This document shows positions 146-4,438 of a stretch of 15,162 bases of DNA, in pieces (position 1 is the stretch's first letter; every line of letters begins with the position of its first letter). The notes beneath the pieces are model-generated. The model saw only the letters and a list, made by a program, of their open reading frames with translations, was not told where the DNA came from and did no database searches. Source of the DNA: a candidate division FCPU426 bacterium (GTDB lineage: Bacteria > Oederibacteriota > JAAXVQ01 > JAUVAV01); NCBI GenBank assembly GCA_030637655.1, contig DAOWGI010000081.1, positions 1-15,162 of the forward strand, given 5' to 3'. The translations under genes were made by a program, and so were the position numbers.

Positions 146-214
146 GTAAAAAGTATACGGTATCAGGTACCGGCCGCGGGGTTTATATTACCAACACATT
201 AAGCAACAAAAAAT
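146..214 (+). repeat. Cassette-boundary repeat copy 1 (core ATCAGGTACCGGCCGCGGGG at 162-181; flanks GTAAAAAGTAT...ACAAAAAAT shared with copy 2)
   Basis: Direct comparison with 1225-1296 and 2255-2292: shared core GGwATCAGGTrCCrGCCrCkGGkTT in the same orientation. Copies 1 and 2 also share GTAAAAG-TAT upstream and ACAAAAAAT about 25 nt downstream. Confidence 0.6.
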
Positions 215-269: not shown

Positions 270-611
270 ATGGCCAAACTTGCCAACCTGTATATTTCTG
301 AGATTGCGGTTTTACAAAAAATATTTGGTAACAGCGCCCGGGTGGCAGATATGCTCAATGTCAATAGATCGTGCGTTTCCCGTTGGCATAAAGGAGAAAT
401 ACCGGATGCTGCCAATAAAGTGAAGATAACTTCACTATTACTGGTTATGGAGATGTTACAAAAGCGATTTAATGAAGAAGGCTCCAATCTATGGCTGCAT
501 GCCAACAATCCCCGGCTGGGACACCGGAAACCTATTGATCTTATCAAAACCGGAAACATTATTAATATTTTGCAGGCAGTTGAAGATATGGAAATAGGTA
601 CTTATCATTAA
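270..611 (+). CDS. Xre/MbcA/ParS-family antitoxin. N-terminal HTH-like segment (SARVADMLNVNRSCVSRWHKGE) and C-terminal DUF2384-like toxin-binding segment (WLHANNPRLGHRKPIDLIKTGN...).
   Basis: Architecture and motifs typical of Xre antitoxins of Xre-RES modules. A 2-nt gap separates it from the downstream RES ORF. Good SD. Confidence 0.65.
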   Translation: MAKLANLYISEIAVLQKIFGNSARVADMLNVNRSCVSRWHKGEIPDAANKVKITSLLLVMEMLQKRFNEEGSNLWLHANNPRLGHRKPIDLIKTGNIINILQAVEDMEIGTYH

Positions 612-2545: not shown

Positions 2546-2794
2546 ATGAAAAAATACCAAATTTTCATAAGCGCAGTACAGAAAGAACTTAAAGCCGAAA
2601 GACGTGCGGTGAAGGATTTCATCTTCGGTGATGTTTTGCTATCAGAGTATTTTGATGTTTTCCTGTTTGAGGACGCGTCCGCTAAGAGTAAGTCCGCGGA
2701 AAAAGCCTATCTTGATGAAGTAGGAGACTCTGATGTGTATATCGGGATACTGGGAAGGAACGCATATTACGAAACAGGAGATGATCCGTTATGA
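2546..2794 (+). CDS. Small DUF4062-like protein (82 aa), possibly a truncated domain
   Basis: IFISAVQKELKAERRAVKDFI ... FEDASAKS ... DSDVYIGILGRNAY resembles the DUF4062 signature (vFISS..dL.eER... sDvyvlilg.rYG). Its stop codon overlaps the Fic start (ATGATGA). Confidence 0.5.
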   Translation: MKKYQIFISAVQKELKAERRAVKDFIFGDVLLSEYFDVFLFEDASAKSKSAEKAYLDEVGDSDVYIGILGRNAYYETGDDPL

Positions 2795-3855
2795 TGACCA
2801 TGCAACGCTTTGCCCGAAAATTCGAAACCGTTCCGGCGACAACCTCCTGGTATTTGGCTGATCTTGGAGAGGCGCGGGGCAAACAGGAATTATTCACGCG
2901 ACAAGCTCCGCAACGCCTCAAAGCACTTCGTGAACACGCTCTCATCGAAAGTGCCGTATCCTCCAACCGGATTGAAGGCGTGGAAATCGACAAATCCCGT
3001 ATTGCTACTGTTATCTTTGGAAAGCCGCTTTTACGTGACCGGGATGAGGAGGAAGTTCAAGGTTACCGGCAAGCCCTGTCTCTGATCCATGAACAAGGGG
3101 CTGGACTCCCGATTTCAGAACAAACTGTTTTGAAACTGCATAGTTTGGCGCGCGGTCATATTTGGGACGCGGGAAAGTACAAGGAGAAAGACAGCGATAT
3201 AATCGAAAATTATCCAGACGGCCGTTCCCGGGTGCGCTTTAAAACAGTTCCCGCGGATCAGACACCGGTCTTTTTAAGAGAAATGTTGAAACTTTATAGT
3301 GAAATTATTAGAGATCACAAGATTCCTCCACTTGTACTATTGGCGGCATTTAATTTGGATTTTCTTTGCATCCATCCTTTTCGTGACGGCAATGGCCGTA
3401 TATCACGCCTCCTGTTTCTTCTGCAAACTTATCACCTGGGATTTGAAGCCGGGCGATATATCAGCCTGGAGCGTCTTATCGAACAGCACAAAGAGAGATA
3501 TTACGAAACCTTGGAGCAGAGTTCCATCGGGTGGCACGAGGGAAAACATGATCCCTGGCCCTATATCAATTACCTGCTATTCATCATAAAGACCGCCTAT
3601 AAGGAATTCGAGGAGCATCTTGGCCGGGTAGGAACTGCCAGGGGAGAAAAAACAGAACTGGTGCTCAGGGCCATTGACCGGTTTCCAGGAGGATTTCGCG
3701 TCGCTGATATTCAAAAACAGTGTCTCGGCGTGAGCGTGGACATGATCAGGAGAGTCTTGAAAAATTTACGGGTAAAAAAGCAAGTCGAGTGCCTGGGGCG
3801 CGGGCAAACTGCCCAATGGCGCAAGGCGAAAAAATGGGAATTGGGTAGTACCTAA
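2791..3855 (+). CDS. Fic family protein (AMPylation/nucleotidyltransferase fold), class II auto-inhibited, with Fic_N-like N-terminus and C-terminal winged-helix-like region
   Basis: Canonical Fic motif HPFRDGNGRISR. The inhibitory-helix motif SNRIEG (S/TxxxE[G/N]) is N-terminal to the active site. About 354 aa, typical size. Confidence 0.85.
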   Translation: MMTMQRFARKFETVPATTSWYLADLGEARGKQELFTRQAPQRLKALREHALIESAVSSNRIEGVEIDKSRIATVIFGKPLLRDRDEEEVQGYRQALSLIHEQGAGLPISEQTVLKLHSLARGHIWDAGKYKEKDSDIIENYPDGRSRVRFKTVPADQTPVFLREMLKLYSEIIRDHKIPPLVLLAAFNLDFLCIHPFRDGNGRISRLLFLLQTYHLGFEAGRYISLERLIEQHKERYYETLEQSSIGWHEGKHDPWPYINYLLFIIKTAYKEFEEHLGRVGTARGEKTELVLRAIDRFPGGFRVADIQKQCLGVSVDMIRRVLKNLRVKKQVECLGRGQTAQWRKAKKWELGST

Positions 3856-3890
3856 TGAAATGGGTAATGAAATGGGTAATGAAAGTAATG
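3853..3890 (+). repeat. Tandem 12-nt repeat TAATGAAATGGG x about 2.7, starting at the Fic stop codon
   Basis: Read directly: TAATGAAATGGG TAATGAAATGGG TAATGAAAG TAATG. Every unit carries in-frame TAA/TGA. Confidence 0.6.
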
Positions 3891-3979
3891 CAAATTCCCT
3901 GAAAATTTCCACGGGAACTATAATTTATTTAGACAGGGATGATTATTGACCATTTCACAAAACGAAAGGTGATTCAATT

Positions 3980-4438
3980 ATGGAAATAACCAAAATATTA
4001 TATTACCTGGCCTGCGCATTCCTGTGGTCAGGTTTGATGTCCCTGGTGGTCATGGCCTGGCGGCCGGGATTTCCGGAATGGCTCACAGCGCATCCTAAGG
4101 TTATGGTGCTGTTGTTGGGCACTGATCAACTCCCTCGGCGACCGGTCCTTACCTTGCGGCGTTTTTATCTTTTTTTAACCTGCGGATTTACCTGGTTGCT
4201 GGTCTGGTCCTGGTGGCTGATGCCGGTCATTAAAGACTTCTTTTTTCGTTCCACGCCCACTCCAACAGCCTGGCAGGTGGCCAGAATTTCCAGTATTATC
4301 GTGGTTTTGGGCTATGCGGCAGTCGGATTTTACGGGATCGGCAAGGCGATTACCATTTGGTTCAAAGAAATTTACAGTCCAACGGTAAAAGACGAAATTG
4401 CCAAAAACCAGGGAAAAGAAAGCCGAAAAAAAAACTAA
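3980..4438 (+). CDS. Hypothetical integral membrane protein (about 4 predicted TM helices, Trp-rich)
   Basis: Hydrophobic segments LYYLACAFLWSGLMSLVVMAW, VMVLLLG, LFLTCGFTWLLVWSWWLMPVI, ISSIIVVLGYAAVGFYGIG. SD AAAGGTGA. No recognisable domain. Confidence 0.45.
   Translation: MEITKILYYLACAFLWSGLMSLVVMAWRPGFPEWLTAHPKVMVLLLGTDQLPRRPVLTLRRFYLFLTCGFTWLLVWSWWLMPVIKDFFFRSTPTPTAWQVARISSIIVVLGYAAVGFYGIGKAITIWFKEIYSPTVKDEIAKNQGKESRKKN

What the first reader, a model, noticed from the sequence alone, without database searches (positions are those of the whole stretch)
2546..4438. DUF4062-like small ORF translationally coupled (ATGATGA) to a class II Fic protein, followed by a Trp-rich 4-TM protein: candidate conflict module
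The Fic enzyme has the complete HPFRDGNGR active site and an N-terminal inhibitory SxxxEG motif (auto-inhibited class II).

The 82-aa upstream ORF looks like an isolated or truncated DUF4062 domain. That domain is usually the N-terminal module of large STAND/ATPase conflict-system proteins. Here it ends exactly at the Fic start codon in a different frame. This is either a coupled two-gene unit or a frameshifted/decayed fusion.

The block lies between a cassette region and a DNA-repair nuclease. A 12-nt tandem repeat full of stop codons follows Fic.
Basis: partly seen in the sequence, partly recalled or inferred. Interest (0 to 1): 0.55.

Follow-up and report, generated by a model that had tools for sequence, protein, structure and literature searches.

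The report
Mobile Fic cassette with own operators
An intact Fic (protein-AMPylating) toxin/defence gene sits as a self-contained 1.1-kb cassette behind the dead first 71 codons of an unrelated NADase defence gene, so the proposed three-gene module is an accident of juxtaposition; the 12-base repeats after Fic, however, are a family-wide array of sites that co-evolve with Fic's own DNA-binding domain.

Summary

- **DUF4062 ORF.** The 82-aa ORF is a genuine DUF4062 match. It covers only residues 1-71 of a ~490-aa DUF4062-Schlafen/HATPase_c_4-wHTH protein and lacks the family-invariant Glu (E87). It is a dead stub.
- **Fic.** This is an intact class II, wHTH-bearing Fic of the SoFic-like kind.
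- **Cassette.** A 96%-identical DNA copy lies in an unrelated context. Homology runs exactly from 15 nt before the ATG to 39 nt after the stop (window 2776-3894). Many other pairs show the same gene-sized boundaries.
- **No conserved partner.** Among about 165 Fic-homolog loci, none has an adjacent DUF4062 and none has the 4-TM gene. Upstream neighbours are heterogeneous.
- **ATGA overlap.** It comes from the family's conserved ATG-ATG-AC start and recurs with many different upstream genes.
- **4-TM gene.** It is chromosomal backbone.
- **The repeat.** The "12-nt repeat" is the real find. A three-site array with spacing 19/20 then 12 straddles the stop codon in 120/147 homologs, against 5/735 control windows. 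Its bases covary with the wHTH recognition helix.

The array is most likely the wHTH's own operator. A promoter-independent roadblock function is my inference.

The parts
2546..2794 (+). 82-aa ORF. It is the 5' stub of a DUF4062 (TIR-like NADase)-Schlafen/HATPase_c_4-wHTH gene, read through into the Fic leader.
   Evidence: Pfam DUF4062 matches at E=4.9e-12, covering profile positions 1-62 of 82. The ORF is 70% identical to residues 1-71 of the 492-aa P0191, and the similarity ends there. The family-invariant S82/T84/E87 (SPTEREF) lie beyond the break. No [ST]xxxE[GN] motif is present.
2546..2758 (+). The homologous part of the stub (codons 1-71).
   Evidence: The BLASTP alignment to P0191 ends at residue 71. 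Alignment A1 shows divergence after ILGR.
2759..2775 (+). 17-nt junction of unassigned origin, encoding NAYYET.
   Evidence: It lies between the end of the DUF4062 homology and the start of the Fic-cassette homology.
2776..3894 (+). Fic cassette. This 1,119-bp unit has a 96.2%-identical copy in an unrelated context (L093-L097). It has no promoter of its own.
   Evidence: The blastn boundaries are -15 relative to the ATG and +39 relative to the stop. Flanks are unrelated even by tblastx.
2776..2780 (+). AGGAG Shine-Dalgarno for Fic, 10 nt before the ATG. It is the first bases of the cassette.
   Evidence: Read directly from the sequence. It is conserved in the L093 copy. The last five codons of the stub (GDDPL*) are encoded by this leader.
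2791..3855 (+). Fic protein, 354 aa. [quoted passage not shown]
   Evidence: Pfam Fic matches at 5.8e-16 and PADLOC SoFic at 1e-30. PDB 8UQU_A matches at E=1.7e-90 over residues 17-345. There are more than 7,900 homologs; the best 120 are 348-382 aa and about 75% identical across phyla.
2962..2979 (+). Inhibitory-helix motif SNRIEG (residues 58-63).
   Evidence: Regex match on the translation. S58, N59, R60, I61, E62 and G63 are invariant in alignment A3.
3373..3408 (+). Fic active-site motif HPFRDGNGRISR (residues 195-206).
   Evidence: Regex match. Invariant in A3.
3634..3825 (+). C-terminal wHTH (residues ~282-345). The recognition helix spans residues 316-328, with S315 as N-cap (nt 3733-3774).
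   Evidence: The AF2 model gives H282-296, H304-310, H316-328 and a beta hairpin at 332-345, with local pLDDT 80-88.
3832..3890 (+). Direct-repeat array straddling the TAA stop (3853-3855). Cores: GGGTAGT at 3843-3849, GGGTAAT at 3862-3868 (+19) and GGGTAAT at 3874-3880 (+12). A degenerate copy lies on each side.
   Evidence: TRF result. The same architecture is present in 120 of 147 homologs against 5 of 735 controls. The stop codon lies inside the array in 106 of 120. Bases covary with the recognition helix.
3980..4438 (+). 4-TM membrane protein. It is NOT part of the module; it is chromosomal backbone.
   Evidence: Relatives L178-L181 have radical-SAM, 4-TM, 185-aa and PHP genes in order with no Fic. 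DNA homology to L178 resumes at window 3964. No homolog lies near any of the ~165 Fic loci.

Best explanation
The region is a patchwork and does not form a module.

**1. The small ORF is a dead stub.** It is the first 71 codons of a DUF4062(NADase)-Schlafen/HATPase_c_4-wHTH defence gene. It lacks the family-invariant Glu, which I take to be catalytic, and all downstream domains.

**2. A Fic cassette is joined to it.** The cassette is 1.12 kb, self-contained and promoterless (2776-3894). It carries a Shine-Dalgarno, an intact class II Fic AMPylase with a C-terminal wHTH, and a 3' repeat array. This gene-sized unit is found at 85-96% nucleotide identity in unrelated genomic contexts, often behind other defence genes.

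**3. The ATGA overlap is generic.** The family's conserved ATG-ATG-AC start contains TGA. Any upstream ORF in that frame therefore ends there, and Fic becomes translationally coupled to whatever lies upstream.

**4. The 12-nt repeats are the wHTH's own DNA sites.** Three sites, spaced 19-20 nt and then 12 nt, straddle the stop codon.

**Inferred function, not shown.** Fic bound at its own stop codon would block RNA polymerase before the stop is transcribed. That would give negative feedback that works under any foreign promoter, as LacI does at O3. Alternatively, the site tethers or tunes the enzyme, by analogy with the DNA-stimulated CbFic2. By analogy with SoFic and EcSofic, the enzyme itself is an auto-inhibited AMPylase acting as a toxin or abortive-infection effector.

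**5. The 4-TM gene is unrelated backbone.**
For: **Stub**
- The Pfam match is partial.
- The ORF is 70% identical to residues 1-71 of the 492-aa P0191 and not beyond.
- Full-length relatives of 485-530 aa carry DUF4062 plus HATPase_c_4, with or without Fic-like_C or an HTH.
- E87 in SPTEREF is invariant across 20 full-length members.
- Other contigs have the DUF4062 N-terminus followed by HATPase_c_4 ORFs, not by Fic.

**Cassette**
- Window versus L093 is 96.2% identical over 1,119 bp, with edges at -15 and +39.
- More than a dozen further pairs have edges at -1 to -92 and +8 to +79.
- At least six pairs have no tblastx similarity in either flank.

**No partner**
- See for DUF4062 and the 4-TM gene, and for the heterogeneous upstream genes.

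**Start and overlap**

**Array**
- It is present in 120/147 loci against 5/735 control windows. Spacing is 19 (88 loci), 20 (23) or 18 (9), then 12 (117/120).
- The motif is absent elsewhere in the +/-5 kb flanks.
- The stop codon lies inside the array in 106/120 loci.

**Covariation with the recognition helix**
- First helix residue R/K goes with A before GGGTA in 38 loci, with G in 4 and with T in none.
- A hydrophobic first residue goes with T in 25 loci.
- N-cap S goes with TAAT in 45 loci, and G with TATT in 14.
- On a tree built from the Fic domain alone, the amino-acid state changes about 15 times and the base about 16 times. The joint state changes only 19 times.

**Structure**
- The wHTH and its helix 3 are placed by AF2 at local pLDDT 80-88.

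**Literature**
- The wHTH of the Fic enzyme CccR binds AGATAATCAT boxes (PMC9755527).
- SoFic binds its own promoter and AMPylates EF-Tu (bioRxiv 10.64898/2026.07.09.737422).
- DNA binding stimulates CbFic2 (PMC10628234).
- LacI autoregulates by a roadblock at O3 (PMC3711431).
- Roadblocks placed before the stop codon lead to trans-translation (PMC13584721).
Against: - No binding, expression or toxicity data exist for this protein.
- The covariation is partly confounded by phylogeny and rests on a quick NJ tree.
- Characterised relatives (CccR, SoFic) bind sites in their promoters, not at the 3' end.
- Plasmid homologs at 45% identity or less show no array, so the array is a subfamily trait.
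- How the cassette moves is unknown. I saw no recombinase, no target-site duplication and no attC-like site.
- Tight homology edges can partly reflect faster decay of intergenic DNA. Unrelated flanking genes argue against this for several pairs.
- The global AF2 model is poor (pLDDT 57.5).
- The stub could still provide a promoter or coupling, and so be "used" without being a partner.
Confidence: 0.75

Rival explanations
1. One reading: the small DUF4062 ORF and Fic form a functional, translationally coupled two-gene conflict unit. The small protein would act as regulator, antitoxin or sensor, and the 4-TM protein as a third component.
For: - The ORF is intact and has a plausible RBS.
- It overlaps Fic by ATGA.
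- The arrangement is identical in six assemblies.
- Both domains belong to defence biology (the DUF4062 preprints).
- A small antitoxin ORF next to EcSofic has been reported, though downstream of the gene (PMC12249575).
Against: - None of ~165 Fic-homolog loci has an adjacent DUF4062, and none has the 4-TM gene.
- The stub stops before the invariant Glu.
- It has no inhibitory (S/T)xxxE(G/N) motif.
- The closest Fic copy (96%) is preceded by a different truncated ORF that ends at the same TGA.
- The six assemblies are one population (99.2-100% identity).
- The 4-TM gene is syntenic backbone.
Confidence: 0.06
2. A frameshifted or decayed single gene that once encoded a DUF4062-Fic fusion protein.
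For: The two ORFs abut in different frames. DUF4062 is usually the N-terminal module of longer proteins.
Against: - The Fic frame has a stop 2 codons upstream of its ATG.
- The best 120 Fic homologs are 348-382 aa with no N-terminal extension.
- Full-length DUF4062 relatives continue into Schlafen/HATPase_c_4, not into Fic.
- Independent Fic homology starts at -15.
- The sequence is identical in six assemblies.
Confidence: 0.02
3. The 3' repeat array is not an operator for Fic. Instead it is the recombination or attachment site that moves the cassette, like an attC. Or it is an RNA element in the 3' UTR acting on stability, termination or reinitiation.
For: - The right-hand homology edge of cassettes falls just after the array in many pairs.
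- The unit is promoterless, like an integron cassette.
- Some clades have an inverted copy that could form a hairpin.
Against: - The bases track the amino acids at the start of the wHTH recognition helix. A trans-acting recombinase or an RNA fold would not explain that.
- Left edges share no sequence.
- The inverted copy is absent in several clades.
- The RNA fold of the window's array is unremarkable (z=-0.79).
- Rfam gave no hit.
- The hydrophobic-to-T correlation suggests contact with a thymine methyl, which points to DNA.
Confidence: 0.15
4. The repeats are a coding or termination by-product: a repetitive C-terminal peptide, or back-up stop codons.
For: The first copy is translated, giving tails such as ...KKG* and ...ELGNT*. 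The units contain TAA and TGA.
Against: - Site 3 lies wholly downstream of the stop in 115/120 loci, and site 2 usually does too.
- The fixed 19/20+12 spacing and the conserved GGG core are not needed for stops.
- The position of the stop slides within the array.
Confidence: 0.03

Closest known systems
SoFic / EcSofic: class II Fic with C-terminal wHTH, and the single-gene anti-phage system "SoFic" in PADLOC/DefenseFinder
   Same: - Same domain order: N-terminal helix with (S/T)xxxE(G/N), Fic core with HxFx(D/E)GNGRxxR, then a C-terminal wHTH.
- The PADLOC SoFic model matches at 1e-30.
- Same defence-island context.
- SoFic dimers bind specific DNA and AMPylate EF-Tu (bioRxiv 10.64898/2026.07.09.737422).
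- EcSofic is toxic and protects against T5 (PMC12249575).
   Different: - Only distant in sequence. Against PDB SoFic the E-value is 2.6e-8 over the core. The NCBIfam SoFic equivalog scores 45.6 bits against a cut-off of 550.
- SoFic's known site is in its promoter. Here the conserved sites straddle the stop codon and none is found upstream.
- No AS1-like ORF follows the gene.
PDB 8UQU chain A, "Fido domain-containing protein"
   Same: It is the closest solved relative, at E=1.7e-90 over residues 17-345. It includes SSNRLEG, HPFPDGNGR and GVSRDMVRLVL in the wHTH.
   Different: I found no functional description. Its recognition helix is of the S-R-D-M class, whereas the window's is S-V-D-M.
CccR (Yersinia pseudotuberculosis T6SS Fic effector and autorepressor) and CbFic2 (Coxiella)
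   Same: - wHTH-Fic enzymes whose HTH binds DNA.
- The CccR box AGATAATCAT resembles the G(G/A)TAAT core found here (PMC9755527).
- DNA binding changes CbFic2 activity (PMC10628234).
   Different: - CccR binds two inverted boxes 26 bp apart in its promoter.
- CbFic2 binding appeared non-specific.
- Neither is reported with a 3' direct-repeat array.
DUF4062 / NIR TIR-like NADase defence proteins (Swarozyc, Evangelion Eva01)
   Same: The stub matches the N-terminal two-thirds of the DUF4062 core. Its parent family has the conserved acidic S-x-T-E motif (bioRxiv 10.64898/2026.05.01.722283, 10.64898/2026.06.25.731849, 10.64898/2026.09.04.749371).
   Different: The window copy ends before the Glu and has no auxiliary region, which Evangelion needs for defence. 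The parent family's auxiliary part is Schlafen/HATPase_c_4 plus wHTH, an architecture I did not find described in those papers.
Class I Fic toxin-antitoxin pairs (VbhT/VbhA, FicT/FicA)
   Same: A small ORF immediately upstream of, and overlapping, a Fic gene.
   Different: The antitoxin supplies the (S/T)xxxE(G/N) helix in trans. Here that motif is inside Fic, making it class II, and it is absent from the small ORF.
LacI autoregulation by a roadblock at the O3 operator at the 3' end of lacI
   Same: A DNA-binding protein whose operator overlaps the end of its own gene. RNA polymerase is blocked before the stop codon and the product is reduced (PMC3711431; PMC13584721).
   Different: This is a functional analogy only and is untested here. 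The array has three phased direct repeats and travels with the gene.
Integron gene cassettes
   Same: A promoterless, single-gene unit with a specific 3' element, found in many contexts and expressed from upstream.
   Different: No attC-like R''/R' cores or integrase were seen. The 3' element covaries with the encoded protein, which attC does not.

Membership tests
Fic/Fido AMPylase, class II (SoFic-like, wHTH-bearing) | Active-site motif HxFx(D/E)GNGRxxR | tested here: met
   HPFRDGNGRISR at residues 195-206. Pfam Fic matches at 5.8e-16. The motif is invariant in 35 homologs.
Fic/Fido AMPylase, class II (SoFic-like, wHTH-bearing) | Inhibitory motif (S/T)xxxE(G/N) in the same chain, N-terminal to the Fic core | tested here: met
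   SNRIEG at residues 58-63. It aligns with SSNRLEG of 8UQU and is invariant in A3.
Fic/Fido AMPylase, class II (SoFic-like, wHTH-bearing) | [quoted passage not shown] | tested here: met
   AF2 gives three helices plus a beta-hairpin at residues 282-345 with pLDDT 80-88. There are weak Csa3/CasR HTH hits. Pfam Fic-like_C did not score.
Fic/Fido AMPylase, class II (SoFic-like, wHTH-bearing) | AMPylation activity, auto-inhibition relieved by E->G, and toxicity | not testable with these tools
   Needs biochemistry or genetics. It is inferred from SoFic and EcSofic (PMC12249575; bioRxiv 10.64898/2026.07.09.737422).
SoFic orthologue (NCBIfam NF046030 equivalog) | Score at or above the curated equivalog cut-off | tested here: not met
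   45.6 bits against a cut-off of 550. It is a related subfamily, not an orthologue.
SoFic anti-phage defence system (PADLOC) | Match to the system's single-gene HMM; defence-island context | tested here: met
   PDLC03963 matches at E=1e-30. The homologs' upstream genes are mixed. The most frequent are helicase, R-M and CRISPR families (ResIII/Helicase_C/SNF2/PLD, Methylase_S, Cas7). Many others are housekeeping genes seen only once. Phage protection itself was not tested.
DUF4062 / NIR TIR-like NADase | HMM match to PF13271 | tested here: met
   E=4.9e-12, 46.3 bits, but only profile positions 1-62 of 82.
DUF4062 / NIR TIR-like NADase | Complete core including the acidic S-x-T-E(Y/F) motif with the catalytic Glu | tested here: not met
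   Homology ends at residue 71. S82, T84 and E87 are invariant in 20 full-length relatives and are absent here. The role of the Glu is taken from the Evangelion preprint.
DUF4062 / NIR TIR-like NADase | Auxiliary C-terminal region required for function | tested here: not met
   The ORF is 82 aa. Relatives are 485-530 aa with HATPase_c_4 and an HTH.
Class I Fic toxin-antitoxin (VbhA/FicA-type antitoxin upstream) | Small partner protein carrying the (S/T)xxxE(G/N) inhibitory helix | tested here: not met
   The motif is absent from the 82-aa ORF.
Conserved DUF4062+Fic(+4-TM) gene module | Co-occurrence of the genes next to Fic homologs in other genomes | tested here: not met
   None of ~165 loci has an adjacent DUF4062. 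One has a distant intact gene 3.5 kb away. None has the 4-TM gene. The 4-TM gene is backbone.
Integron cassette | attC site with R''/R' cores at the 3' end; integrase nearby | tested here: inconclusive
   I checked only by eye, at the cassette edges and at the intergenic repeats, and saw no GTTRRRY cores. I ran no attC model.

The most novel reading that the evidence does not exclude
A portable protein-plus-operator design. Defence-island toxins that end in a wHTH carry, across their own stop codon, a phased array of direct repeats. The array co-evolves with the recognition helix. This holds for the Fic subfamily here and, independently, for Schlafen/HATPase_c_4 proteins including the DUF4062-tipped ones. 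The array would give promoter-independent self-control, by a roadblock before the stop codon or by DNA-tethered inactivation. That would let a toxic, promoterless single gene hop into any operon. As far as I could find, this has not been described.
Probability: 0.4. Interest if true: 0.7.

Novelty: new variant of a known kind. Interest (0 to 1): 0.5.

Why it matters
The proposed DUF4062+Fic+4-TM module would be a false lead for anyone mining defence systems. It is a gene stub, a hitch-hiking cassette and a backbone gene.

The useful result is about Fic biology. wHTH-Fic enzymes (SoFic, CccR, CbFic2) are known to bind DNA, but why a toxin needs an HTH is unsettled.

Here, a large and phylum-spanning subfamily keeps three phased sites across its own stop codon. 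The amino-acid-to-base correspondences are simple: R/K with A, hydrophobic with T, Ser with A, Gly with T. This gives ready-made, testable operator sequences. It also gives a specificity code and a hypothesis for how a toxic, promoterless gene stays safe wherever it lands.

The same layout behind Schlafen/HATPase_c_4-wHTH genes suggests a wider design rule in defence islands. It may also bear on the report of a small "antitoxin" region downstream of EcSofic.

Tried and rejected
- **Sequencing frameshift at 2785-2800.** Rejected. The junction is identical in six assemblies.
- **Structured RNA.** Rfam gave no hit on the whole window. The RNA fold of the array has z=-0.79. No support.
- **Extra operator copies.** I searched the window and the +/-5 kb flanks of homologs for more copies of the motif, for example at promoters. 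None exceeded chance.
- **Repeat D3.** The similarity between 2540-2563 and 3873-3896 is judged a chance match.
- **More distant homologs.** Plasmid Fic homologs at 45% identity or less (Acidovorax, Paenisporosarcina, Lactiplantibacillus) have no array. The array is therefore subfamily-specific.
- **E. coli genomes.** blastn found no match.
- **Structure.** The AF2 model of the whole Fic has poor global confidence (57.5). I did not run a fold search and used only the well-predicted wHTH.
- **The ORF upstream of the 96% copy (L093/L097).** Pfam, PADLOC and NCBIfam gave no family. There is only one weak tblastn hit, so its identity is unresolved.
- **Viral-contig scans.** P0191 alone found nothing. 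The alignment A7 worked.
- **Wasted literature queries.** "Fic"+"GGGTAAT" returned only noise.
Full report
**Observation**

The ORFs and motifs are as described. The 82-aa ORF lies at 2546-2794, Fic at 2791-3855 (354 aa) and the 152-aa membrane ORF at 3980-4438. Pfam supports DUF4062 for the small ORF at E=4.9e-12, but covers only profile positions 1-62 of 82. Pfam supports Fic for the second ORF at 5.8e-16.

SNRIEG is at Fic residues 58-63 and HPFRDGNGRISR at residues 195-206. The two ORFs overlap by ATGA in different frames. The Fic frame is closed by a TGA two codons upstream of its ATG. TRF finds TAATGAAATGGG repeated 2.7 times at 3853-3884. The junction is identical in six independent assemblies, so it is not a read error.

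**The small ORF is a stub**

A word-indexed search returned only short relatives of 47-144 aa. They share the first ~70 residues. Many then continue as ...YG.......SPTE.EF..AKK..ILIYIKGEN..., whereas the window ORF diverges after ILGR.

An exhaustive HMMER search with a 144-aa relative found full-length proteins of 485-530 aa. These carry DUF4062 plus HATPase_c_4, with or without Fic-like_C or an HTH. Their middle part resembles Schlafen/PNTD modules.

The window ORF is 70% identical to residues 1-71 of the 492-aa P0191, and the similarity stops there. In an alignment of 20 full-length members, S82, T84 and E87 (SPTEREF) are invariant or nearly so. Recent preprints show DUF4062 is a TIR-like NADase with a catalytic Glu in an acidic S-x-T-E(Y) motif. 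The stub lacks that motif.

In other contigs the DUF4062 N-terminus is followed by HATPase_c_4 ORFs, not by Fic.

**Fic is a gene-sized cassette**

The Fic protein has thousands of homologs. The best 120 are 348-382 aa and about 75% identical across Desulfobacterota, NC10, Nitrospirota, Verrucomicrobiota and other phyla.

A 95%-identical protein (P0054) lies in a different context. At the DNA level the two loci are 96.2% identical over exactly window 2776-3894. That span runs from the AGGAG Shine-Dalgarno, 15 nt before the ATG, to 39 nt after the stop.

The upstream ORF in that other context is unrelated to DUF4062. It nevertheless ends ...GADPL* at the same TGA. The last five codons of the window's stub (GDDPL*) are therefore encoded by the Fic leader.

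I fetched 80 genome loci and 80 metagenome loci. More than a dozen further pairs are 85-95% identical only across the gene. Their edges fall at -1 to -92 and +8 to +79. At least six pairs have no similarity in either 2-kb flank, even by tblastx.

**No conserved partners**

tblastn with the stub, with longer relatives, with P0191 and with the 4-TM protein found almost nothing across ~165 loci. There was one DUF4062 gene (L126), which is intact and 3.5 kb upstream. The 4-TM protein had no hit outside the window's own sequence.

The nearest upstream ORFs are heterogeneous. ResIII/Helicase_C appears in 11 of 121, partly together with SNF2 and PLD domains. Cas7 appears in 6, NOV_C in 5 and Methylase_S in 4. 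Many housekeeping singletons make up the rest.

The 4-TM gene, by contrast, sits in conserved synteny in relatives that lack Fic. The order there is radical-SAM, 4-TM, 185-aa gene, PHP/MJ0043_C gene. Backbone DNA homology resumes at window 3964.

**The ATGA overlap is generic**

The family's start is ATGATGA in 59 of 140 loci, and nearly always ATGA. An upstream open frame of at least 80 codons ends in exactly this 4-nt overlap in 23 of 140 loci. It ends within 40 nt in 53 of 140, and the upstream genes vary.

**The repeat array**

Printing the 3' ends of homologs showed repeats like the window's almost everywhere. A three-site pattern is present in 120 of 147 non-redundant loci, against 5 of 735 control windows from the same loci. 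The pattern is an 8-mer that recurs at +18 to +21 and again at +11 to +13. Spacing is 19 (88 loci), 20 (23) or 18 (9), then 12 (117 of 120).

The stop codon lies inside the array in 106 of 120 loci. Site 3 is fully untranslated in 115 of 120. The motif does not recur elsewhere in the flanks. Some clades add an inverted copy between sites 1 and 2. Others do not.

Copies within a locus agree, while loci differ. The differences track the C-terminal domain:

| Recognition-helix class | Repeat unit |
|---|---|
| GVS-V-DMIR | GAATTGGGTAAT |
| GVS-R-DMIR | AAAGAGGGTAAT |
| GVG-R-EWIR | AGTGAGGGTATT |
| GVG-L-DLIR | AAACTAGGTATT |

The covariation can be counted:
- R/K at the first helix position goes with A before the core in 38 loci, with G in 4 and with T in none.
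- A hydrophobic residue there goes with T in 25 loci, with C in 1 and with A in 1.
- Ser at the N-cap goes with TAAT in 45 loci, and Gly with TATT in 14. There are 12 exceptions.
- On an NJ tree built from the Fic domain alone, the residue state changes about 15 times and the base about 16 times. The joint state changes only 19 times.

AF2 places these residues at the N-cap and start of helix 3 of a well-predicted wHTH (residues 282-345, pLDDT 80-88). The global model is poor.

The window's array shows no notable RNA fold and there is no Rfam hit. I conclude the array is the wHTH's cognate DNA site.

**Comparison with known systems**

The protein is a class II wHTH-Fic. The closest solved structure is 8UQU (E=1.7e-90). 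SoFic itself is distant. PADLOC's SoFic defence model matches at 1e-30.

Published relatives bind DNA through the wHTH:
- CccR represses its own promoter through AGATAATCAT boxes.
- SoFic binds its promoter and AMPylates EF-Tu.
- DNA stimulates CbFic2.
- EcSofic is toxic and reportedly has a small downstream antitoxin ORF.

None of these papers describes sites at the 3' end. The nearest functional precedent is LacI blocking transcription at O3, at the end of lacI. Roadblocks placed before a stop codon trigger trans-translation. I propose, as inference only, that the array gives promoter-independent negative feedback. Alternatively it tethers the enzyme. Either would suit a promoterless toxic cassette.

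**Generality**

Arrays of 10-12-nt direct repeats follow Schlafen/HATPase_c_4-wHTH genes too. Examples are L012 (AAGGGGACATA, 5 copies), L008 (ATATCGGACAT, 4), L126 (TATCCGCAAC, 5), L186 (GGTTACTGGC, 7), L195, L202, L204 and L210.

The enrichment in that sample is modest. Four of 31 loci have at least 4 copies, against 3 of 155 controls. Fic homologs at 45% identity or less on plasmids lack an array.

**Verdict**

The module interpretation is not. The genes themselves are ordinary members of known families. The stop-straddling, co-evolving operator array on a mobile single-gene Fic cassette is, as far as I could find, undescribed, and it is directly testable.

Noticed in passing
L012 ~1740-1810; L008 7447-7490; L126 1600-1700; L186 2558-2630; L195, L202, L204, L210 just after the stop codons: Genes for Schlafen/HATPase_c_4 proteins ending in a wHTH are followed by tandem 10-12-nt direct repeats right at or after the stop codon. 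Some of these proteins have an N-terminal DUF4062. Examples are GGTTACTGGC in 7 copies and AAGGGGACATA in 5. The repeat sequence is specific to each locus. This is the same design as the Fic array, but with an unrelated wHTH.
   Followed up: partly
window 156-181, 1235-1260, 2261-2286: Three copies of a GC-rich ~23-26-nt element (GGAATCAGGTGCCGGCCGCTGGT) sit in successive intergenic regions about 1 kb apart. They lie before Xre, between RES and MBL, and between MBL and the DUF4062 stub. Contigs L001 and L002 begin at window 2264, inside the third copy, which suggests a multi-copy repeat. No attC-like cores were seen by eye.
   Followed up: partly
window 270-611 and 614-1177: A Xre/ParS-type antitoxin (Pfam Xre_MbcA_ParS_C, NCBIfam Xre_ParS_antitoxin) is followed 3 nt later by a RES-domain toxin. 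This is a typical type II RES-Xre toxin-antitoxin pair at the left of the islet.
   Followed up: no
L009 6001-7590; proteins P0002-P0053: N-terminal fragments of this DUF4062 subfamily (47-144 aa) are strikingly common in metagenomes. Some are visibly split genes, for example L009, where a 59-aa ORF is followed 18 nt later by the 463-aa remainder. Others have frameshifted tails. Frequent inactivation of a toxic NADase gene is one possible reading. Short contigs explain part of it.
   Followed up: partly
L093 4985-5440 / L097 2-484: The 96%-identical Fic cassette in the other context is also preceded by what looks like a truncated gene. It is a 151-160-aa ORF (LLVGYFYTSGF...IRILIGIS, possibly PLD-like) that matches no HMM. 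Full PLD-SNF2 helicases precede Fic in several other loci.
   Followed up: partly
L025, L027, L036 (about 70 nt upstream of Fic); L025 about 70-90 nt downstream of the Fic stop: The Verrucomicrobiota copies have a run of 7-nt repeats (CTTTAGC/TTTCAGC) just upstream of the Fic start. In L025 a similar ~20-nt sequence (GGGAAYAGTGCGCTTCA) occurs on both sides of the cassette. That could be a duplicated target or a repeat-bounded array.
   Followed up: no
literature: PMC12249575 (EcSofic AS1): A 47-aa ORF downstream of E. coli Sofic was reported to neutralise toxicity, but the protein could not be purified. Given the 3' operator arrays found here, the DNA of that region might contribute to the effect. 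E. coli genomes had no blastn match to the window's cassette, so I could not check.
   Followed up: no
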